Assembly (NCBI GenBank): GCA_018304565.1
Contig: JAGVVX010000007.1
Location: forward strand, 1-39,015
Reading direction: 5' to 3'
Source of the DNA: Candidatus Aenigmatarchaeota archaeon
GTDB lineage: Archaea > Aenigmatarchaeota > Aenigmatarchaeia > GW2011-AR5
Length of the DNA stretch: 39,015 nucleotides
Shown here piece by piece: positions 3,577 through 35,406 of this stretch. Numbering within the stretch: the stretch's first letter is position 1; each line of letters begins with the position of its first letter. A model generated the notes under the pieces. It made no database searches. It had not been told where the DNA came from and was given only the letters and a program-made list of their open reading frames with translations. A program made the translations under genes and the position numbers.

Positions 3577-3728
3577 GGGCGCGTAGCTCAGTTTGGATAG
3601 AGCATCAAGCTTTGGCGTGTAAGCCTTCTAAGCTGAGGGCCGCGGGTTCGAAAAGCCCTTTTCTTCCAGAGAAAAACGCTTGCGGAAAAGAAACCGGGAG
3701 AAGGGGTACGAAATTCCCGTCGCGCCCA
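3577..3728 (+). tRNA. tRNA-Arg(TCT) with two introns: ~15 nt inside the anticodon stem (about 3607-3621, position 28/29-29/30) and ~62 nt in the T-loop (about 3653-3714, position 59/60)
   Basis: Acceptor GGGCGCG/CGCGCCC+A. D arm GCTC-AGTTTGGATA-GAGC. After removing 15 nt the anticodon arm is TCAGC-CTTCTAA-GCTGA. Variable region GGGCC. T stem GCGGG...CCCGT with T-loop TTCGAA|T restored only after removing ~62 nt. The spliced length is 75 nt. Confidence 0.7.
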
Positions 3729-7723: not shown

Positions 7724-7780
7724 GATATCAATCTTGTTTATTCATATTTTAAAAGTAAAGAAAAAAGCATATTTATACGA

Positions 7781-7903
7781 GGAATACCACCTGTCTTTAG
7801 GCGGCGGTATTATTATTCGTGGTATTCCGGTATAAAAGAATCCACATGTGTTATTAGTGGTATTTCACAGAAATACCACCATCTTCAGGCCGTGGATTCT
7901 TTT
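7781..7903. promoter_or_regulatory. Palindromic module pair in the pheS/glyS divergent intergenic region (R1 copy 7781-7833, R2 copy 7834-7903)
   Basis: R1: GGAATACCAC-N28-GTGGTATTCC followed by GGTAT. R2: nested AAAAGAATCCAC...GTGGTATTTC-ACA-GAAATACCAC...GTGGATTCTTTT. Read on the minus strand, R1 is followed by TCGTATAAATAT (TATA-like) about 45 nt before the pheS ATG. Confidence 0.6.
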
Positions 7904-10535: not shown

Positions 10536-10643
10536 ACTCAGGATACCACCTATCTTTAGATGCTGGAGGAAACCATTAAACCATCAGTAATTACAAGTGG
10601 TTTCCTGGTATCACAACCATCGTTTGAAAACGATGGTTGTGAT
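10536..10643 (-). promoter_or_regulatory. Upstream cassette A (inverted copy of cassette B at 35305-35406), directly abutting the CBS/HPF-like gene start
   Basis: Read toward the gene it has three parts. First, the 16-bp palindrome ATCACAACCATCGTTT/AAACGATGGTTGTGAT plus ACCAGGAAACCAC. Then a ~35-nt variable AT-rich (TATA-like) spacer. Then ATCTAAAGATAGGTGGTATCCTGAGT-ATG. The proximal 26 nt is identical to cassette B, and the distal ~47 nt is near-identical. Confidence 0.7.
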
Positions 10644-12487: not shown

Positions 12488-12566
12488 AAAATCGCCCGGT
12501 TGCCTGTGATTTGTAACTTTGTACTGCAGCTGGGTAGTTCTTGTATCCATAATTATGCTTATACAA

Positions 12567-12704
12567 GGAATACCACCAGCCTTTAGACGGTGATATTATT
12601 AGTGGTATTCCGGTATGCTCAGAAAGCAAAGCTTTCTGGCATGCCAAAATTGCTCTGCAATTTTGAGCATAAGAGGATCCACAAATAAGATTTGTGGATC
12701 CTCT
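12567..12704. promoter_or_regulatory. Palindromic module array in the hydrolase/trmY divergent intergenic region
   Basis: R1 copy at 12567-12616 (GGAATACCAC-N25-GTGGTATTCC-GGTAT, ~85% identical to 7781-7833). Hairpin ATGCTCAGAAAGC-AAA-GCTTTCTGGCAT at 12615-12642. Hairpin CAAAATTGC-TCT-GCAATTTTG at 12645-12665. 16-bp perfect palindrome AAGAGGATCCACAAAT-AAG-ATTTGTGGATCCTCTT at 12670-12704. Confidence 0.65.
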
Positions 12705-13361: not shown

Positions 13362-13610
13362 TTATTTGGATTCTGAGCATCCGTTATTTCGGCACACACA
13401 TGTTAACACAATATCTGGATTATCCGGGCCACATTTAGCTATAGAAGCATATGCAACAGTCGTACATCTATCACAAAACTCTACGCAGTCCGCATCTCTG
13501 TTGCAAGAAAGTGTATTTGTTAAATTCTTTTGCGATCCAGTAGAAAGCGCATAAATTAAAACAACAACTAAGATAGTTATTGCAACAATCACTCCAGTTT
13601 GTTTCTTCAT
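13362..13610 (-). CDS. Small membrane-anchored or secreted cysteine-rich protein (82 aa, 8 Cys)
   Basis: N-terminal hydrophobic helix (GVIVAITILVVVLIYAL) followed by a Cys-rich ~55-aa domain. No family recognised. Confidence 0.5.
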   Translation of the reverse strand: MKKQTGVIVAITILVVVLIYALSTGSQKNLTNTLSCNRDADCVEFCDRCTTVAYASIAKCGPDNPDIVLTCVCRNNGCSESK

Positions 13611-13669
13611 TGTTACTATCTTACAAAACAGAAATATATATATATGTATACAAGATCGAAGTATTGTTT

Positions 13670-14392
13670 ATGATTACTCAAAATACACCTCTTCTTAAAA
13701 TAAATGAAGATATTGCAGAGTTCGTTGGCGCTTTAATTGGAGACGGATATATTTACACTAACAAAAACAAATATATCATAGGATTTACTGGAAATCCTAT
13801 CACAGATAAAGAATATTATGAATATCTAAGAAGATTGATAAATATAGCTTGGAAAAAAGAAGTCAAAATAAAATTAAGAGGGAGAGGCATTAGAATTGTT
13901 ATTAATTCTAAGAATATAGTTAATTTTTTGATAAATGAAATACAAATTAAACACGGAATCAATAAAAGCGAATCTGTAGTAATACCAGAAGTCATGACCA
14001 AAGACTGGAGTTTGACTAAATTAGTAATAAGAGGTATTGTTGATACAGATGGCTCTGTTTTTGTTTCTAAAAAGCCCGGCATAGATATGTACCCTTCTAT
14101 AGAAATTACAACATCGAGCCCTGAATTAGCTTTTCAACTAAGGAATATCCTATTAAGCCGTGGTTTTAGAGTTGCGAAAATATGGAGTTATAAATCTAAA
14201 TTAAGTAAAAGAATTTCTTATAAAGTTCCTCTAAACGGACTTGAAAATGTTGGTAAATGGTTAAAAGAAATAGGCTTTTCCAATCCTTACAAACTGAAAA
14301 GAGCAAAAGAAATATGGGATGGGAGGGATTTGAACCCTCGACATTCCCGACGTAACACAAAAGTGTTATGCTCCACGGTTCCTGCTCAGTAG
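13670..14392 (+). CDS. Free-standing double-motif LAGLIDADG homing endonuclease-like protein
   Basis: Two LAGLIDADG motifs (FVGALIGDGYI and VIRGIVDTDGSV). Start taken at the internal ATG (MITQNTPLL). The last ~25 codons read antisense through the 3' part of the convergent tRNA gene. Confidence 0.85.
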   Translation: MITQNTPLLKINEDIAEFVGALIGDGYIYTNKNKYIIGFTGNPITDKEYYEYLRRLINIAWKKEVKIKLRGRGIRIVINSKNIVNFLINEIQIKHGINKSESVVIPEVMTKDWSLTKLVIRGIVDTDGSVFVSKKPGIDMYPSIEITTSSPELAFQLRNILLSRGFRVAKIWSYKSKLSKRISYKVPLNGLENVGKWLKEIGFSNPYKLKRAKEIWDGRDLNPRHSRRNTKVLCSTVPAQ

Positions 14393-14447
14393 GACTTCAG
14401 CTTCACATCTTTCGATCGTGTGCTCTCCCATGCTGAGCTACCATCCC
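14315..14447 (-). tRNA. Intron-containing tRNA, class II-like (long variable arm); tentative Ser(CGA) with ~50-nt intron at 37/38
   Basis: Minus strand: acceptor GGGATGG/CCATCCC+A. D arm GCTC-AGCATGGGA-GAGC. T arm GAGGG-TTCAAAT-CCCTC. The best anticodon arm is ACACG-AT-CGA-A|intron|T-TGTGT followed by a 15-nt variable arm. The isotype is uncertain: the position-26 spacing is awkward, and discriminator A is unusual for Ser. Confidence 0.65.
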
Positions 14448-14869
14448 TAATTAACTTCAAACGCCTTTTCAATACTCTTTCTCATATCAGGGGATATTTC
14501 AAGGCTCCTAAGCTCGTCTTTCGTTATCCACCTGTATTCTGTATGCTCGTTCGGATCTATCTTTACAGCAAAGCTGTCAGCTTGTATTATAAAATCGCTT
14601 TCAACAGAATCCTTTCCGGCATACTTGTAGTAAAACTCGTTGTATTTCTTGATTATTCTGATTTGTAGTTCCGTTTCCTCTAAAAACTCCCTTACAAGTG
14701 CTTCTTCGTCACTCTCGTTTCCTTCAACCCTTCCGCCAGGTATTTCCCAGAGATTAGGCCAAAGTACCCTTTCTTTTGTCCTTTTGACTACTAGCAATTT
14801 CCCTTTTTGGAACAAGGCACCACCTACTATTCTTGTTGCGGAAGCTTCCTTTCCGCAAGCGCTTTGCAC
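14447..14869 (-). CDS. Nudix hydrolase
   Basis: Nudix box GGRVEGNESDEEALVREFLEETEL. The track ORF (to 15016) has an N-terminal extension that is simply a read-through of a tRNA-like gene. The likely start is GTG at ~14869, or a nearby TTG. Confidence 0.75.
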   Translation of the reverse strand: MQSACGKEASATRIVGGALFQKGKLLVVKRTKERVLWPNLWEIPGGRVEGNESDEEALVREFLEETELQIRIIKKYNEFYYKYAGKDSVESDFIIQADSFAVKIDPNEHTEYRWITKDELRSLEISPDMRKSIEKAFEVN

Positions 14870-14890
14870 GTTTATCCTGTGCAAAGGGCT

Positions 14891-14998
14891 TCTCGAACCG
14901 CCGACCCTCACGTCTCTGTCCTGAGATTTATCTGTGTCCCGAAGAACTCCGTTCTTCAAGATAACAGCGTGATGCTCTACCTGCTGAGCTATCGAGGC
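14891..14998 (-). tRNA. tRNA-Asn(GTT)-like 5' portion (acceptor 5' strand through T-loop, with ~48-nt intron at 37/38) lacking any 3' T-stem/acceptor strand; split-tRNA half or relic
   Basis: Minus strand: GCCTCGA-TA-GCTC-AGCAGGTA-GAGC-A-TCACG-CTGTTA|intron|A-CGTGA-GGGTC-GGCGG-TTCGAG, then AAGCCCTTT... The expected CCGCC-TCGAGGC is not found in the following ~450 nt or elsewhere in the window by eye. Confidence 0.55.
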
Positions 14999-15020
14999 AT
15001 GACTATTAGTTTTCATAAGG

Positions 15021-16230: not shown

Positions 16231-17898
16231 TTACTCTTCTTCTATCTCTTTCTTTCCTGCCTTTCCTGTGGCTTTTGACTTAACCTCTTCTGTCTCGGGT
16301 TCTTTTTCAGATGTTTTCTGTTCCTGGATTTCCAGTTCCTTCATCTTATCCCTGTTCTTTACCATTCCAACTATTTTCTTTTCTATTCCACTCGGTTCCT
16401 TTCCCGTTAGTATATGCAGGGCATTTGCAACCTCCCCGGCATAACGCTCAAAGATTTGTATCCTTCGCTGCGCCTCGCCTGCGCGCCTTTTTCCGGACAA
16501 AAACGAGGAGAGTTTTCTTCCAGCTTCCTGCAAGGTTAATTGTATTTCCTTTACTATTTCAATGTAGGGTGCTATAGCTTCCTTACTCTCCGACACAAAT
16601 GGTACCCAAACAGAAGACATGTGAATTACCAGTATCATAGGCCCTGTAGGCAGTGAGTTCTTCGGTTGTTGCAAGTTGTATCTTTTCCAGTCAGTTTCCT
16701 TGACTGCTTCTATCGTTGCACAGGCCCCGGCTTGGTAAAGAAGAGGCACCCTGTTTGCGATCCTTATAATTTCTATTTGGTCATCAGTGTTGCCCAGATT
16801 GCCGTAAAGTATGCCGACTTCTATCTGGAAGGGCATTCCTCTGTATACCTCTGGTTCTCTGCTGACAATGGCTACAAACTCCGCCTGAGGATATTCTTTC
16901 TTCAGGCTTTTCTCAAGTTCGCCGTTGCCTATTGGAGACAGGCAGTCAAGCGGTGGTCTTTGTATCTTAACCTTCTGCATTGCTCCAAGCAGTTTCTCTA
17001 TGGAAGCCCTGTCCAGTGAAGGCGGTTTTGCATCAGCATCGAGCTTTGCTGTTTTGCATATTTCCTTTGATGTCTGCGCGCCTACAGACGAGAATTCATT
17101 TACAAGGAAAGACTGGAGTGTCTTTGAATTTGTTTTTGACAAGAATCTTTGCAAAACACCGAATTCCATACCGTAAGGATGCATCTTCATCTCTCTTGGC
17201 GGCTTAGGCAGGTGGTCGAAGCTTCTTGGAAAGGTTGTCTTGTTCCCTTCCGGCGACTGGTAAACAATCTTTGCAAAAGGATTCGCGATGCTTGTTTGTT
17301 TTAGATAATCATCAACGCTCTGGGTTTTCCTGTAACGACCGACAACATCTATCTCTATCTTCACGCCTCTTTCCAAGCCATCTTCCAGCGTCTGTTCTTT
17401 TACAATTTCCGGTTCATTCTTTTCGGTGTTTATAAACAGTTCGTAGTATTGTACCTTTTTCTTTTCATCCGTCCTGGACCAGACTTTTGTCGGAGAGCCT
17501 GTAGTCAACTGTGAATACAAGACCACTGCGGAAATGCCAATGCCTTGCTGACCACGACTCTGACGAAGTCGGTGGAATTTGCTGCCGTACAAAAGCTTCC
17601 CAAAAATTTTTGGGATCTGCTCTTTTACTATGCCTGGTCCGTTATCCTGCACTGTAACTCGGAACTTGTCTTCTCCTGTTTGCTTCAATTTTACAGTTAT
17701 ATCAGGAAGTATTCCTGCCTCCTCACATGCGTCCAGGCTGTTATCGCACGCTTCTTTGACCGTCATAAGCAGAGCCTTTGTTGGATTATCAAAACCAAGC
17801 AAATGCTTGTTCTTTTCAAAGAATTCGCTTATGGAGATTTCTTTCTGCTCCTTTGCGAAATCCTCCGCGGTTTTTTTAATCGATTTTATCTCTGGCAT
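16231..17898 (-). CDS. top6B: DNA topoisomerase VI subunit B (GHKL ATPase)
   Basis: Bergerat fold N-box EACDNSLDA, G1 box DNGPGI, G2-like GQQGIG, transducer domain. Directly upstream of top6A. Confidence 0.9.
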   Translation of the reverse strand: MPEIKSIKKTAEDFAKEQKEISISEFFEKNKHLLGFDNPTKALLMTVKEACDNSLDACEEAGILPDITVKLKQTGEDKFRVTVQDNGPGIVKEQIPKIFGKLLYGSKFHRLRQSRGQQGIGISAVVLYSQLTTGSPTKVWSRTDEKKKVQYYELFINTEKNEPEIVKEQTLEDGLERGVKIEIDVVGRYRKTQSVDDYLKQTSIANPFAKIVYQSPEGNKTTFPRSFDHLPKPPREMKMHPYGMEFGVLQRFLSKTNSKTLQSFLVNEFSSVGAQTSKEICKTAKLDADAKPPSLDRASIEKLLGAMQKVKIQRPPLDCLSPIGNGELEKSLKKEYPQAEFVAIVSREPEVYRGMPFQIEVGILYGNLGNTDDQIEIIRIANRVPLLYQAGACATIEAVKETDWKRYNLQQPKNSLPTGPMILVIHMSSVWVPFVSESKEAIAPYIEIVKEIQLTLQEAGRKLSSFLSGKRRAGEAQRRIQIFERYAGEVANALHILTGKEPSGIEKKIVGMVKNRDKMKELEIQEQKTSEKEPETEEVKSKATGKAGKKEIEEE

Positions 17899-26296: not shown

Positions 26297-26445
26297 AGAT
26301 TTCCCAAAGAAAATTCAAAGACCTTCCATTTTTTCTTGATATCTTAACTTAATTATTATAATCTCAGACGGTATATAAAGATTGTCAAAATTGTATAAAA
26401 TCAAAGAAATTGACTTTTTATTTTCTTTTGCTTTTAGTAAAAGAC

Positions 26446-31565: not shown

Positions 31566-32153
31566 ATGAAAATAGTGCTGAAAATAGGCGGATCGATTTC
31601 AATAAATGAAAACGGACCAGTTGAAGCTTACTTCAGAAAGCTTTTGCCAGTGATAAGACAAATAAAAACAAGGCACCGGCTGATTTTATGGAAAGAAGAA
31701 ATGGAATGGATAGCCATTGAGCTGCTGAGAGTGAATGTAAGGTTTCTTTCCTCGCTGCTCAATATGAAACCCCTGTACAGGTTGGAAGAAATAAGCACAA
31801 AAACAACCGGCGTTATAGGCGGCATAAAGCCCGGCAGGAGCACTGATGCAAATGCAGCTTACTGCGCGGCGAAGATAAAGGCTGATTTGTTCGTAAAACT
31901 TACAAACGTTGACGGAATTTACGATAAAGATCCGCGTAAACACAAGGACGCCAGGAAACTAGAAACGCTAAGCTTTGCTGACCTGAAGAAATTTTCACAA
32001 TCCGGGAAGCCCGGAAGTTACGGCATACTTGACAGGCTTGCAATAGAAACAATAACCAAGCACAAGATAAAGACAGTTATTATGAACGGAAAGGACCCGA
32101 AAAACATACTCAAACTAATCAACGGAGAAAAGATAGGAACTCTGATACATTAA
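31566..32153 (+). CDS. Amino-acid-kinase family protein, UMP kinase (PyrH)-like but lacking the Gly-rich loop segment
   Basis: KIGGS N-terminal motif, GGIKPGRSTDANAAYCAAKIKADLFVKLTNVDGIYDKDP core typical of archaeal PyrH. About 28 aa shorter than typical, and no VVGGG motif after residue 45. Confidence 0.6.
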   Translation: MKIVLKIGGSISINENGPVEAYFRKLLPVIRQIKTRHRLILWKEEMEWIAIELLRVNVRFLSSLLNMKPLYRLEEISTKTTGVIGGIKPGRSTDANAAYCAAKIKADLFVKLTNVDGIYDKDPRKHKDARKLETLSFADLKKFSQSGKPGSYGILDRLAIETITKHKIKTVIMNGKDPKNILKLINGEKIGTLIH

Positions 32154-32194: not shown

Positions 32195-32285
32195 GGGCTT
32201 GTAGTCTAGCGGCTATGACTTTTTATTAGTAGAATACGCTACCCTCACATGGTAGAGATCCCCAGTTCGAATCTGGGCAAGCCCA
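32195..32285 (+). tRNA. tRNA-Val(CAC) with ~18-nt non-canonical intron between D stem and anticodon stem (about 32220-32237, position 25/26)
   Basis: Acceptor GGGCTTG/CAAGCCC+A. D arm GTCT-AGCGGCTA-TGAC. Then TTTTTATTAGTAGAATAC. Then G-CTACC-CTCACAT-GGTAG-AGATC-CCCAG-TTCGAAT-CTGGG. Confidence 0.75.
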
Positions 32286-32944
32286 TACATTTTCAAATAC
32301 TTTCTTTTTGAAAGAGCTTGTTTTATCCGTTTTTTATTTTTGAATCCTATATTTACAATATAATTGTGAATATCTTGTTTTCTTTGCAAGGATATGCGCC
32401 ATATAACCCTTCTTTTATAATCACGTTTTTTATTGGTAAAAGAATATATTGTAGGAGAAAATCCTAACATTTTTAATAGAGACTTTATTTCGTAAGCAAA
32501 AATTTTGTTTGTGCAGTTCCACGATAAAATCAGATAATAACTATTACCACTTTCACGCCAATATACAGTCCCATCTGTATCAATTAAACCACGTAAAAAG
32601 TTTTTACCACATATTTTACTTGAAAATACAAATTTAGGTACTCTAAGTTTATCTAACTTTGGGCCTTTTGGAAAGCCAGTCTTTAATAAAAGATTGTAAG
32701 TATTTTTACAAGCTATTCTTAATTCAATGACATTATAAGGATCGCCTCTTTTTACAATACGAAAAATATGGAAATCAAAAACTTTCGCATATAACTTCTT
32801 GACGTAATTGAAATATTGTTTCTCGGTGCTCGATGTTCCGTATCCGACTTCATTTGGTTTAGATGCAAGCCAACCATCACCTGCATGAATACCACATAAT
32901 TCAGCATAGTTTCCTATTAAGCTTCTATCGACTAATCTAACCAT
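32213..32944 (-). CDS. Free-standing double-motif LAGLIDADG homing endonuclease-like protein (paralog of 13670..14392)
   Basis: Motifs ELCGIHAGDGWL and FLRGLIDTDGTV. The last ~24 codons read antisense through the tRNA-Val body (stop in the D-loop). Confidence 0.85.
   Translation of the reverse strand: MVRLVDRSLIGNYAELCGIHAGDGWLASKPNEVGYGTSSTEKQYFNYVKKLYAKVFDFHIFRIVKRGDPYNVIELRIACKNTYNLLLKTGFPKGPKLDKLRVPKFVFSSKICGKNFLRGLIDTDGTVYWRESGNSYYLILSWNCTNKIFAYEIKSLLKMLGFSPTIYSFTNKKRDYKRRVIWRISLQRKQDIHNYIVNIGFKNKKRIKQALSKRKYLKMYGLAQIRTGDLYHVRVAYSTNKKS
32263..32287 (+). repeat. Direct repeat copy 1 (inside tRNA-Val: T-stem to 2 nt past the discriminator)
   Basis: CAGTTCGAATCTGGGCAAGCCCATA, identical to 33018-33042. 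Confidence 0.85.
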
Positions 32945-33017
32945 TTTATTAAGATTGATAAAATTTGATATAAACTTATAGCCTTTTTATTGTACAGATT
33001 TCAAGATATAAGCTAAA

Positions 33018-33042
33018 CAGTTCGAATCTGGGCAAGCCCATA
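33018..33042 (+). repeat. Direct repeat copy 2: orphan tRNA-Val 3' end fragment
   Basis: CAGTTCGAATCTGGGCAAGCCCATA, 755 bp downstream of copy 1. The two copies bracket the LAGLIDADG gene and its upstream region. Confidence 0.85.
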
Positions 33043-35304: not shown

Positions 35305-35406
35305 ATCAACAACCATCGTCTGAAAACGATGGTTGTGATACCAGGAAACCACAGTTATATTTGTGACTTACTGGTTCCATATCTAAAGATAGGTGGTATC
35401 CTGAGT
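35305..35406 (+). promoter_or_regulatory. Upstream cassette B (inverted copy of cassette A at 10536-10643), abutting the IPK start codon
   Basis: ATCA(A)CAACCATCG...CGATGGTTGTGAT palindrome plus ACCAGGAAACCAC. Then a TATA-like GTTATATTTG. Then ATCTAAAGATAGGTGGTATCCTGAGT-ATG. Confidence 0.7.

What the first reader, a model, noticed from the sequence alone, without database searches (positions are those of the whole stretch)
13670..14447. Recurring architecture: a free-standing LAGLIDADG gene convergent with a tRNA gene and overlapping its 3' part antisense (two independent loci)
At both 13670-14447 and 32195-32944, a ~240-aa double-motif LAGLIDADG ORF runs toward a tRNA gene. Each terminates 72-77 nt inside the tRNA on the opposite strand: one stop codon is in the tRNA intron, the other in the D-loop. 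Archaeal LAGLIDADG genes are normally found inside rRNA introns or inteins. Here they are neither in-frame inteins nor sense-strand intron ORFs. The repeated geometry suggests the tRNA 3' region is the target or landing site, or that antisense overlap couples endonuclease expression and tRNA expression.
Basis: partly seen in the sequence, partly recalled or inferred. Interest (0 to 1): 0.7.

Follow-up and report, generated by a model that had tools for sequence, protein, structure and literature searches.

The report
Homing endonuclease genes docked on tRNAs
Two endonuclease genes in this small archaeal genome sit flush against tRNA genes, and their relatives in many other DPANN archaea each sit against one particular tRNA, which looks like a selfish gene family using tRNA genes as its landing site.

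Summary
ORF A (13670-14392, +) and ORF B (32944-32213, -) are intact double-motif LAGLIDADG genes. Each runs 78 or 73 nt into a convergent tRNA gene.

Comparison with more than 100 related loci changes the picture. A, B and a third clade are each tied to one tRNA species: Phe(GAA), Val(CAC) and Arg(UCG). The invariant is that the gene's 3' end abuts a tRNA terminus. That terminus can be the tRNA 3' end (convergent) or the 5' end (co-directional). A tRNA lies within 60 nt of the stop in 56 of 66 homologous ORFs, against 18 of 351 other ORFs.

The overlapping tail is unconserved and predicted disordered, so it is incidental read-through.

Three independent insertions are bracketed by direct repeats of the tRNA 3' end: 25 nt at locus B, 26 nt in L003, and 12 nt in L094. 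Related genomes hold HEG-less alleles: L107 for A and L088 for B. L107 also lacks a variable-loop intron present in all four HEG-bearing alleles of that lineage.

Best reading: free-standing homing endonuclease genes that target individual tRNA genes. I found no description of this. Cleavage activity is untested, and a domesticated role is not excluded.

The parts
13670..14392 (+). LAGLIDADG gene A (240 aa). Residues from about 216 to 240 are an antisense read-through of the tRNA-Phe 3' part.
   Evidence: The A family shares 55-68% identity across DPANN, and D25/D127 are invariant.
13611..13669 (+). Upstream region of gene A, with an A/T-rich TATA-like run (ATATATATATAT) about 25-35 nt before the ATG.
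   Evidence: Read directly from the sequence. The promoter role is an inference.
14315..14447 (-). tRNA-Phe(GAA) gene with about three introns. Gene A ends inside it.
   Evidence: Rfam 43.4 bits. Alignment with 7 relatives shows the conserved anticodon loop CUGAAG.
14344..14372 (-). An insert of about 29 nt (intron) in the variable loop of tRNA-Phe. Boundaries are good to about 2 nt. It is present in all four HEG-bearing alleles of this lineage and absent from the HEG-less allele L107.
   Evidence: Alignment A4.
14380..14394 (-). Intron at the canonical 37/38 position of tRNA-Phe. It contains the stop codon of gene A (14390-14392).
   Evidence: Positions were counted on the sequence.
14402..14416 (-). 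First intron of tRNA-Phe, in the 5' strand of the anticodon stem. Boundaries are approximate. The HEG-less allele also has an intron at this site.
32195..32285 (+). tRNA-Val(CAC) gene with an 18-nt non-canonical intron (about 32219-32236) after the D-arm. Gene B ends inside it.
   Evidence: ARAGORN. The Rfam local hit aligns the loop CUCACAU as the anticodon loop. Relatives are called Val(CAC).
32213..32944 (-). LAGLIDADG gene B (243 aa). Residues 221-243 are an antisense read-through of tRNA-Val.
   Evidence: AlphaFold2 model with pLDDT 86.5 and tail 222-243 below 50. Best fold match is I-Tsp061I.
32263..32287 (+). Direct repeat, copy 1. It covers tRNA-Val positions 51-73 plus 2 nt.
32945..33017 (-). 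Upstream region of gene B, lying between its start codon and the tRNA remnant.
   Evidence: The promoter role is an inference.
33018..33042 (+). Direct repeat, copy 2. This is an orphan 25-nt remnant of the tRNA-Val 3' end on the far side of gene B. It marks a 755-bp insertion.
   Evidence: It is a 100% match, and it and one 31-nt hairpin pair (97%) are the only (near-)exact repeats of 25 nt or more in the window.

Best explanation
Genes A and B belong to a large family of free-standing LAGLIDADG homing endonuclease genes in DPANN archaea. Each clade is specific for one tRNA gene: A for tRNA-Phe(GAA), B for tRNA-Val(CAC), and a third clade for tRNA-Arg(UCG).

Shown here:
- The proteins have the fold and the catalytic residues of the family.
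- The linkage between clade and tRNA holds across loci.
- The gene packs with zero spacer against either tRNA terminus.
- Insertion scars made of duplicated tRNA 3' ends flank three insertions.
- HEG-less alleles exist in related genomes.

Inferred:
- The enzyme recognises DNA inside its cognate tRNA gene. That gene is the only sequence shared by all loci of a clade.
- It cuts alleles that lack the endonuclease gene.
- The break is repaired from an allele that carries the gene, with the tRNA serving as the homology arm.
- When the far flank is not homologous, the repair ends by end-joining. This leaves the recipient's own tRNA 3' fragment beyond the insert. The result is a full tRNA, then the endonuclease gene, then an orphan tRNA 3' end.
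- Tight linkage to the target is what a selfish endonuclease gene needs in order to be co-converted.

The reading of the ORF into the tRNA is a by-product. There is no spacer, so translation runs on to the first chance stop codon in the antisense tRNA.
For: 1. Protein. Both match Pfam LAGLIDADG_3. Both aspartates are invariant or nearly so. The AlphaFold2 model shows two alpha-beta-beta-alpha-beta-beta-alpha domains, pLDDT 86.5. The best structural matches are the archaeal intron endonuclease I-Tsp061I (2dch, E 4e-11), intein endonuclease domains and I-DmoI.

2. Linkage. 56 of 66 homologous ORFs have a tRNA within 60 nt of the stop, against 18 of 351 controls, p 6e-43.
- All 9 distinct A-family contexts carry tRNA-Phe(GAA).
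- All B-clade loci carry tRNA-Val(CAC).
- About 50 loci of the third clade carry tRNA-Arg(UCG).
- The Rfam tRNA model confirms strand and position in 12 test loci.
- About 25 other tRNAs in the same loci (Pro, Gly, Ala, Glu, Lys and others) have no such neighbour.

3. Either tRNA end is used within one clade. In the convergent B loci the junction is fixed to within 3 nt. In co-directional loci the ORF ends on the tRNA's TATA box.

4. Scars. The direct repeats of the tRNA 3' end are 25 nt in the window, 26 nt in L003 and 12 nt in L094. Fragments of the tRNA 5' end lie upstream of the gene in L069, L001 and L020.

5. Empty sites. L107 has Top6A 90% identical to the window. It carries tRNA-Phe followed directly by the 186-aa gene. 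In L094 the same gene follows the endonuclease gene plus a 12-nt tRNA remnant. L088 has the syntenic tRNA-Val and no endonuclease gene.

6. Decay. 8 of 68 copies are truncated or frameshifted.

7. No integrase or transposase lies nearby.

8. Precedent. Phage T4 SegB is a free-standing endonuclease whose 27-bp site contains the tRNA T-arm motif (PMC2330249).
Against: - No cleavage activity or target site has been shown.
- The endonuclease-linked tRNA is intact, and at locus B the duplicated 25 nt are identical. Any site of about 22 bp lying wholly inside the tRNA, or across its old 3' flank, would therefore survive in the filled allele. Self-immunity is unexplained.
- Within Aenigmatarchaeota the genes stay at syntenic positions. 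Top6A is 80-83% identical while the endonuclease is 58-68% identical. In the Arg clade the tRNA promoter is embedded in the ORF. Both point to long, stable residence.
- About 88% of copies are intact, and A-family identity is 55-68% across phyla. That could reflect selection for a host function.
- No relatives were found on viral contigs.
- Only one empty site per clade was found. The loci were found by searching with the endonuclease itself, so prevalence is unknown.
Confidence: 0.6

Rival explanations
1. The gene encodes a domesticated LAGLIDADG protein. It would be a sequence-specific DNA (or RNA) binding factor that serves the neighbouring tRNA gene. Possible roles are transcription control, as WhiA does in bacteria, or help with maturation of multi-intron pre-tRNAs. 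It would be inherited vertically together with that tRNA.
For: - The A family shows 55-68% identity across DPANN phyla, and most copies are intact.
- The position is syntenic within Aenigmatarchaeota.
- The tRNA TATA box is embedded in the ORF end of co-directional loci.
- WhiA appears among the fold matches, at rank 18.
- The neighbouring tRNAs are unusually intron-rich.
Against: - Both catalytic aspartates are invariant, whereas known domesticated relatives lose them (my own knowledge).
- Close relatives lack the gene while keeping a functional-looking tRNA (L107, L088).
- There are truncated copies and insertion scars of duplicated tRNA ends.
- A trans-acting factor has no need to abut its target with zero spacer in two opposite geometries.
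Confidence: 0.2
2. The genes are cargo or leftovers of integrase-type integrative elements (viruses or plasmids). Such elements insert into tRNA 3' ends by site-specific recombination and leave att direct repeats.
For: Direct repeats of 25-26 nt run from the T-stem to just past the tRNA 3' end. They look like archaeal attL/attR sites as described for SSV1 and pNOB8 (PMC3293823).
Against: - The bracketed segment at locus B is 755 bp and contains only the LAGLIDADG gene.
- No integrase lies in any neighbourhood examined.
- The same gene clades also abut tRNA 5' ends co-directionally.
- One protein clade is tied to one tRNA species across more than 60 loci.
- No relatives were found in IMG/VR viral contigs.
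Confidence: 0.05
3. The antisense overlap is itself functional. Transcription or translation of the endonuclease gene across the tRNA would couple or repress the expression of one by the other.
For: Overlaps of 41-95 nt recur in convergent loci (window A and B, L001-L003, L076, L079, L094, L095).
Against: - The overlap is absent from most family members. L101 has a 0-nt gap, L097 has a gap, and all co-directional loci lack it.
- The tail sequence simply follows whichever tRNA lies there.
- The tail is predicted disordered.
Confidence: 0.05

Closest known systems
Archaeal rRNA-intron LAGLIDADG homing endonucleases (I-Tsp061I, I-DmoI) and intein endonuclease domains
   Same: They share the monomeric double-motif fold and the catalytic aspartates. 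These are the best sequence and structure matches (NCBIfam hits fall only on intein-containing proteins). They also target highly conserved stable-RNA or housekeeping genes.
   Different: Those genes lie inside a spliced intron or an intein, on the sense strand, and splicing makes the insertion harmless. Here the gene is free-standing and sits outside the mature tRNA, flush with a tRNA terminus and in either orientation.
Phage T4 SegB (a GIY-YIG free-standing homing endonuclease in the tRNA gene cluster; PMC2330249)
   Same: It is a free-standing endonuclease gene next to tRNA genes. Its recognition site contains the conserved tRNA T-arm motif. It drives inheritance of itself and of the flanking tRNA genes.
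   Different: The protein family is unrelated. The genome is a phage rather than a cell. SegB is not specific to one tRNA per clade, its ORF does not abut a tRNA terminus with zero spacer, and no tRNA-end duplications are described.
Collaborative (trans) homing: free-standing F-CphI next to an ORF-less intron in cyanophage psbA (reviewed in PMC3984707)
   Same: The endonuclease gene lies beside the target gene rather than in it, and an intron in the target interrupts the cleavage site. The HEG-bearing tRNA-Phe alleles carry a variable-loop intron that the HEG-less allele lacks.
   Different: That system involves a group I intron in a protein-coding gene of a phage. Here the introns would be protein-spliced archaeal tRNA introns. 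The link rests on 4 alleles against 1, and L004-L006 and L097 do not fit it.
Integrative elements that use tRNA genes as att sites (SSV1 and pNOB8 types; model of tRNA disruption in PMC3293823)
   Same: The tRNA gene is reconstituted and an orphan direct repeat of the tRNA 3' end lies at the other border.
   Different: There is no integrase, the insert is only 0.75-1 kb, and the only candidate mobility gene is an endonuclease.
Mitochondrial free-standing endonuclease ORFs inserted at gene 3' ends with a duplicated terminal segment (for example Allomyces atp6; recalled from my own knowledge, not checked here)
   Same: The insertion carries a replacement copy of the target's 3' end and leaves the original 3' end as a remnant downstream.
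   Different: The targets there are protein-coding genes in organelles. The endonuclease families differ or are only related.

Membership tests
LAGLIDADG homing endonuclease (monomeric, double-motif) | Two LAGLIDADG motifs, each ending in a conserved acidic residue | tested here: met
   A has GDG (D25) and DTDG (D127). B has GDG (D23) and DTDG (D124). These are invariant or nearly invariant in 26- and 30-sequence alignments.
LAGLIDADG homing endonuclease (monomeric, double-motif) | Tandem alpha-beta-beta-alpha-beta-beta-alpha fold that forms a DNA-binding saddle | tested here: met
   AlphaFold2 model with pLDDT 86.5 and pTM 0.84. Foldseek top hits are I-Tsp061I, intein endonuclease domains and I-DmoI, with probability 1.00.
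LAGLIDADG homing endonuclease (monomeric, double-motif) | Site-specific double-strand cleavage of a site of about 18-22 bp | not testable with these tools
   This needs purified protein and tRNA-gene substrates.
LAGLIDADG homing endonuclease (monomeric, double-motif) | Residence inside a self-splicing intron, an archaeal intron or an intein | tested here: not met
   The ORFs are free-standing. They lie antisense to the tRNA or upstream of it, and only their last 23-25 codons enter the tRNA.
Free-standing homing endonuclease gene (intronless homing) | The gene lies in an intergenic position tightly linked to a conserved target gene | tested here: met
   56 of 66 against 18 of 351, p 6e-43. Each clade is specific for one tRNA.
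Free-standing homing endonuclease gene (intronless homing) | Presence/absence polymorphism at the same locus among related genomes | tested here: met
   L107 (no A gene) compared with window, L094 and L101. L088 (no B gene) compared with window and L076. There is only one empty allele per clade.
Free-standing homing endonuclease gene (intronless homing) | The carrier allele is resistant to the enzyme | tested here: inconclusive
   The linked tRNA is intact and the 25-nt repeat is identical. The variable-loop intron in HEG-bearing tRNA-Phe alleles is a candidate site disruptor, but L097 and L004-L006 have no such intron.
Integrase-type integrative element at a tRNA att site | Direct repeats made of the tRNA 3' part at both borders | tested here: met
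   25 nt in the window, 26 nt in L003 and 12 nt in L094.
Integrase-type integrative element at a tRNA att site | A tyrosine or serine recombinase is encoded in the element or next to it | tested here: not met
   The 755-bp insert holds only gene B. Neighbouring ORFs are an amino-acid kinase family protein, mevalonate kinase, an HTH protein, and so on.
Collaborative homing (endonuclease plus separate intron) | The intron insertion site coincides with the endonuclease target, and intron and endonuclease gene are inherited together | tested here: inconclusive
   Co-occurrence is 4 of 4 HEG-bearing alleles against 0 of 1 HEG-less allele for the tRNA-Phe variable-loop intron. The target site is unknown.

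The most novel reading that the evidence does not exclude
These tRNA-specific endonucleases drive more than their own spread. They would also carry the short non-canonical tRNA introns, and replacement tRNA segments, that lie next to them. The intron would interrupt the enzyme's site in the tRNA gene, as in collaborative homing. Intron, distal tRNA exon and endonuclease gene would then move as one unit. That would give a concrete DNA-level mechanism for how archaeal tRNA genes acquire introns at odd positions, become fragmented, and leave orphan tRNA pieces.
Probability: 0.25. Interest if true: 0.85.

Novelty: new variant of a known kind. Interest (0 to 1): 0.7.

Why it matters
How archaeal tRNA genes gain introns at non-canonical positions, split, and leave fragments is an open question. 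Published models invoke integrase-bearing viruses and plasmids and note the lack of direct evidence (PMC3293823).

This work points to a widespread family of endonuclease genes, apparently not yet described, that is physically married to particular tRNA genes in DPANN archaea. The evidence includes insertion scars, empty sites, and one case where an adjacent intron comes and goes with the endonuclease gene. That makes the question testable with a few recombinant proteins and defined tRNA-gene substrates.

There are practical points too:
- These ORFs are easily lost in annotation because they overlap tRNAs. ORF A has no NCBI protein record.
- Their C-terminal tails are artefactual tRNA read-through.
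- If active, the enzymes would be compact meganucleases with natural specificity for tRNA genes.

Tried and rejected
1. ARAGORN isotype calls (Ser-CGA, Leu-TAG, SeC, His and others) were rejected. They are artefacts of non-canonical introns. Identities were reassigned from conserved anticodon loops and Rfam alignments.
2. I considered that the gene might lie in a giant tRNA intron or form part of a split or permuted tRNA. This was rejected because a complete tRNA lies beside the gene in nearly every locus.
3. I searched for a tRNA-end repeat at locus A. None was found within 2.5 kb.
4. I asked whether the intron always protects the linked tRNA. This was rejected as a general rule. L004-L006 (Val) and half of the Arg-clade tRNAs have no intron. 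L088 keeps the Val intron without the endonuclease gene.
5. The similarity between the tRNA-Val promoter region and the region upstream of gene B (D7) turned out to be a general promoter-like motif also present at 26374. It is not evidence for a second tRNA copy.
6. A viral-contig scan for a vector found no relatives.
7. Loci anchored on mevalonate kinase, L089-L093, lacked both the tRNA and the endonuclease gene, so they were uninformative as empty sites.
8. A test of horizontal against vertical inheritance using shared housekeeping genes was possible only within Aenigmatarchaeota. No shared markers existed for the cross-phylum loci.
9. Minimum-free-energy folds of the pre-tRNAs did not resolve bulge-helix-bulge splice motifs.

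Full report
**What is in the window**

ORF A (13670..14392, +, 240 aa) and ORF B (32213..32944, -, 243 aa) are the only LAGLIDADG genes in the window. Both match Pfam LAGLIDADG_3. They share 24% identity with each other. Both keep the GDG and DTDG motif aspartates.

An AlphaFold2 model of B is confident, with pLDDT 86.5, and shows two alpha-beta-beta-alpha-beta-beta-alpha halves. Residues 222-243 have pLDDT below 50. The nearest solved structures are the archaeal rRNA-intron enzyme I-Tsp061I, intein endonuclease domains and I-DmoI.

The window comes from a Candidatus Aenigmarchaeota MAG. Neighbours of A are EndA, TrmY, a Nudix gene and Top6A. Neighbours of B are mevalonate-pathway genes. No integrase or transposase is present.

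**The tRNAs**

A ends inside a tRNA at 14315..14447 (-), Rfam 43.4 bits. B ends inside a tRNA at 32195..32285 (+).

Alignment with relatives shows the first is tRNA-Phe(GAA), with anticodon loop CUGAAG. It has about three inserts: about 14402-14416, 14380-14394 (canonical 37/38 position, holding the A stop codon) and about 14344-14372 (variable loop).

The second is tRNA-Val(CAC), with loop CUCACAU and an 18-nt intron after the D-arm. The Rfam model aligns its anticodon and T arms at 28.4 bits. The B stop codon lies in the D-loop.

ARAGORN's isotype labels are not correct.

An exact 25-nt direct repeat, CAGTTCGAATCTGGGCAAGCCCATA, occurs at 32263-32287 and again at 33018-33042. The first copy covers tRNA-Val positions 51-73 plus 2 nt. 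The second lies 73 nt beyond the B start codon. It is one of only two exact or near-exact repeats of 25 nt or more in 39 kb. Gene B therefore sits in a 755-bp segment bracketed by the tRNA 3' end and an orphan copy of it.

**The association is family-wide and tRNA-specific**

Homologues of B (42-73% identity) almost all end in peptide tails that are antisense translations of tRNA acceptor and T arms, such as ..Y-GLAQIRTGD.., GIEP and RFEL.

A scan of one genome per GTDB species returned 75 DPANN loci. In 56 of 66 evaluable loci a tRNA lies within 60 nt of the ORF stop, against 18 of 351 other ORFs (p 6e-43). Most of the remainder are contig ends or truncated copies.

- **B-clade loci** always carry tRNA-Val(CAC).
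- **The A family** is large, with more than 359 word-indexed hits and 519 clusters at E<=1e-10. In all nine distinct contexts examined it carries tRNA-Phe(GAA).
- **A third clade**, 26-35% identical to A and B, sits immediately upstream of tRNA-Arg(UCG) in about 50 loci.

The Rfam tRNA model independently confirms position and strand in 12 loci. Other tRNAs in the same loci have no such neighbour. In L108 a further LAGLIDADG_3 gene lies beside tRNA-Asn.

**The invariant is "3' end of the gene against a tRNA terminus", not "antisense to the tRNA 3' part"**

Within the B clade, L004 and L006 have the gene co-directional and upstream of tRNA-Val. Within the A family, L099, L103 and L105 are co-directional, while the window, L094, L095, L097 and L101 are convergent.

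In convergent B loci the conserved ..(K/R)Y codon ends on the complement of the discriminator base, to within one codon. In co-directional loci the ORF ends on, or reads through, a TATA-like element 25-33 nt before the tRNA.

Most A-family proteins are 208-212 aa and stop before the tRNA. L101 has a 0-nt gap. The overlap in the window is thus read-through caused by the lack of any spacer. The tails are unconserved and predicted disordered.

**Evidence for insertion and loss**

Three independent insertions are bracketed by direct repeats of the tRNA 3' end:
- locus B in the window, 25 nt;
- L003, 26 nt, starting at tRNA position 49;
- L094, 12 nt.

Fragments of the tRNA 5' end lie upstream of the gene in L069 (13 nt, co-directional), L001 (14 nt) and possibly L020.

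L107 is the closest relative found, with Top6A 90% identical. Its order is Top6A, tRNA-Asn, Nudix, tRNA-Phe, followed after 46 nt by a 186-aa gene. It has no LAGLIDADG gene.

In L094 the homologous 186-aa gene is preceded by the 12-nt tRNA-Phe remnant. The endonuclease gene plus a 68-aa gene lie between that remnant and the full tRNA. This is a filled/empty pair.

L088 (mevalonate kinase 63% identical) has the syntenic tRNA-Val, with the same intron, and no endonuclease gene. Eight of 68 copies are truncated or frameshifted. Strain-level contigs of the source organism all carry B.

**Link to introns**

The HEG-less L107 tRNA-Phe has only the first intron. All four HEG-bearing alleles of the same lineage (window, L094, L095, L101) carry an extra insert of about 29 nt in the variable loop, a few nucleotides from the T-stem and about 33 nt from the endonuclease gene.

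The repeat breakpoints in the B clade fall at tRNA positions 49-51, the same region. This fits a site around the variable loop and T-stem that an intron could disrupt, as in collaborative homing (PMC3984707). Phage T4 SegB likewise recognises the T-arm motif (PMC2330249).

The link is not general. L097, L004-L006 and many Arg-clade tRNAs lack such introns, and L088 keeps the Val intron without the endonuclease gene.

**Mechanism proposed**

Within a clade, the only DNA common to all loci is the tRNA gene. It is therefore the most likely recognition target (inference). A break in a HEG-less tRNA gene would be repaired from a HEG-bearing allele, using the tRNA as the homology arm.

If the far flank is heterologous, the copied tract (distal tRNA part plus endonuclease gene) would be joined to the broken end. 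That end still carries the recipient's own tRNA terminus. The result is the observed order: full tRNA, endonuclease gene, orphan tRNA end. In co-directional loci the mirror image arises: 5' fragment, endonuclease gene, full tRNA.

The acceptor stem reads nearly the same when entered from either end of the gene. This may explain why both termini are used (inference).

How the carrier allele escapes cutting is not explained. Cleavage has not been demonstrated.

**Rivals**

- **A domesticated DNA-binding role.** This is supported by the high conservation, stable synteny and embedded promoter. It fits poorly with the invariant catalytic residues, the empty sites, the scars and the decayed copies.
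- **Remnants of integrase-type elements.** This explains the repeats but nothing else. No integrase is present, the inserts are 0.75-1 kb, the 5'-end geometry is unexplained, and there are no viral relatives.
- **Functional antisense coupling.** This is not supported.

**Novelty**

Full-text searches found no paper linking LAGLIDADG genes to tRNA genes in DPANN or other archaea. The published model for tRNA disruption invokes integrases (PMC3293823).

I class this as a new variant of a known kind, namely free-standing homing endonuclease genes. It has a specific and testable bearing on the evolution of archaeal tRNA genes.

Noticed in passing
window 14840-14998 (-): A tRNA-Asn(GUU)-like gene (Rfam 32.8 bits) has its 5' acceptor strand, D-arm, anticodon loop CUGUUAU, an intron and the 5' half of the T-arm. 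It has no 3' T-stem or acceptor strand anywhere in the window. In the close relative L107 the same gene is complete (..AATTCCGCCTCGAGGCG). The window copy is therefore either truncated by about 30 nt or a split tRNA half. It also overlaps the annotated N-terminus of the Nudix ORF 14447..15016.
   Followed up: partly
window 3577-3728 (+) and 14840-14900 (-): A tRNA-like gene at 3577-3728 was found only by ARAGORN with introns allowed and not by Rfam at the gathering score. It has an insert inside the T-loop. That insert shares motifs (TTCGArAAGCCCTTT and CGCTTGCGGAAArGAA) with the T-loop insert of the tRNA-Asn-like gene. So related introns sit at the same position in two different tRNAs.
   Followed up: partly
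L108 5795-6728: In another Aenigmatarchaeota genome (Top6A 77% identical) a different LAGLIDADG_3 gene, not similar to A or B by tblastn, lies 35-80 nt downstream of a multi-intron tRNA-Asn(GUU) on the same strand. Here the gene's 5' end faces the tRNA. This is a fourth pairing with a tRNA and a third geometry.
   Followed up: partly
L097 3131-3340: Downstream of the A-family gene, two consecutive sequences that look like acceptor 3' strands (TGGGGAGG and TGGGACAG on the + strand) precede the antisense tRNA-Phe T-arm. A matching 5' strand (GGGGAGG) lies about 60 nt upstream of the D-arm. This is either an intron near the acceptor stem or a duplicated tRNA 3' end.
   Followed up: no
window 10613-10643 and 35309-35339: A 31-nt palindromic element, ACAACCATCGTyTGAAAACGATGGTTGTGAT, occurs twice at 97% identity in intergenic positions. 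It may be a shared terminator hairpin or a small repeat element.
   Followed up: no
window 7773-7820 and 12559-12606: A 48-nt intergenic sequence is repeated at 83% identity (TTATACGAGGAATACCACC..TTTAGGCGG..). Its function is unknown.
   Followed up: no
L094 2218-2424, L101 2222-2428: A conserved 68-aa gene (MPKKKGFT..STSEICDKLNMGYETGLKYIE..; looks like a winged-helix protein by eye, not tested) lies next to the A-family gene in L094 and L101. Like the endonuclease gene, it is absent from the empty site in L107, so it may travel with the insert. The window has an unrelated 82-aa Cys-rich membrane protein gene there instead (13362..13610).
   Followed up: partly
L094 5122-5678, L108 140-3496: Top6B in these relatives carries an intein with a LAGLIDADG domain (1017-1118 aa products). 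The window's Top6B ORF (16231..17898, 555 aa) has none. This is a second presence/absence polymorphism of a homing element in the same neighbourhood.
   Followed up: no
L099 2110-2442, L103 about 2100-2450: In two co-directional A-family loci the gene is preceded by the RNase P RNA gene (Rfam 85.4 bits in L099) and followed by tRNA-Phe. The endonuclease gene therefore sits between two stable-RNA genes.
   Followed up: partly
window 13670-14392: The exact ORF A protein is recorded from ENA and Logan assemblies. Its 90% cluster contains only one partial 124-aa NCBI record from another assembly, although Top6A and mevalonate kinase of the window have NCBI records. ORFs that overlap tRNAs may be dropped by annotation pipelines (inference), which could hide this family.
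   Followed up: partly
window 31566-32153: The amino-acid kinase family ORF upstream of tRNA-Val matches the Pfam model only over its C-terminal half (profile 145-234). Gene calls for it differ between strain contigs (150, 173 and 218 aa). It may be a frameshift or a degraded N-terminus.
   Followed up: no
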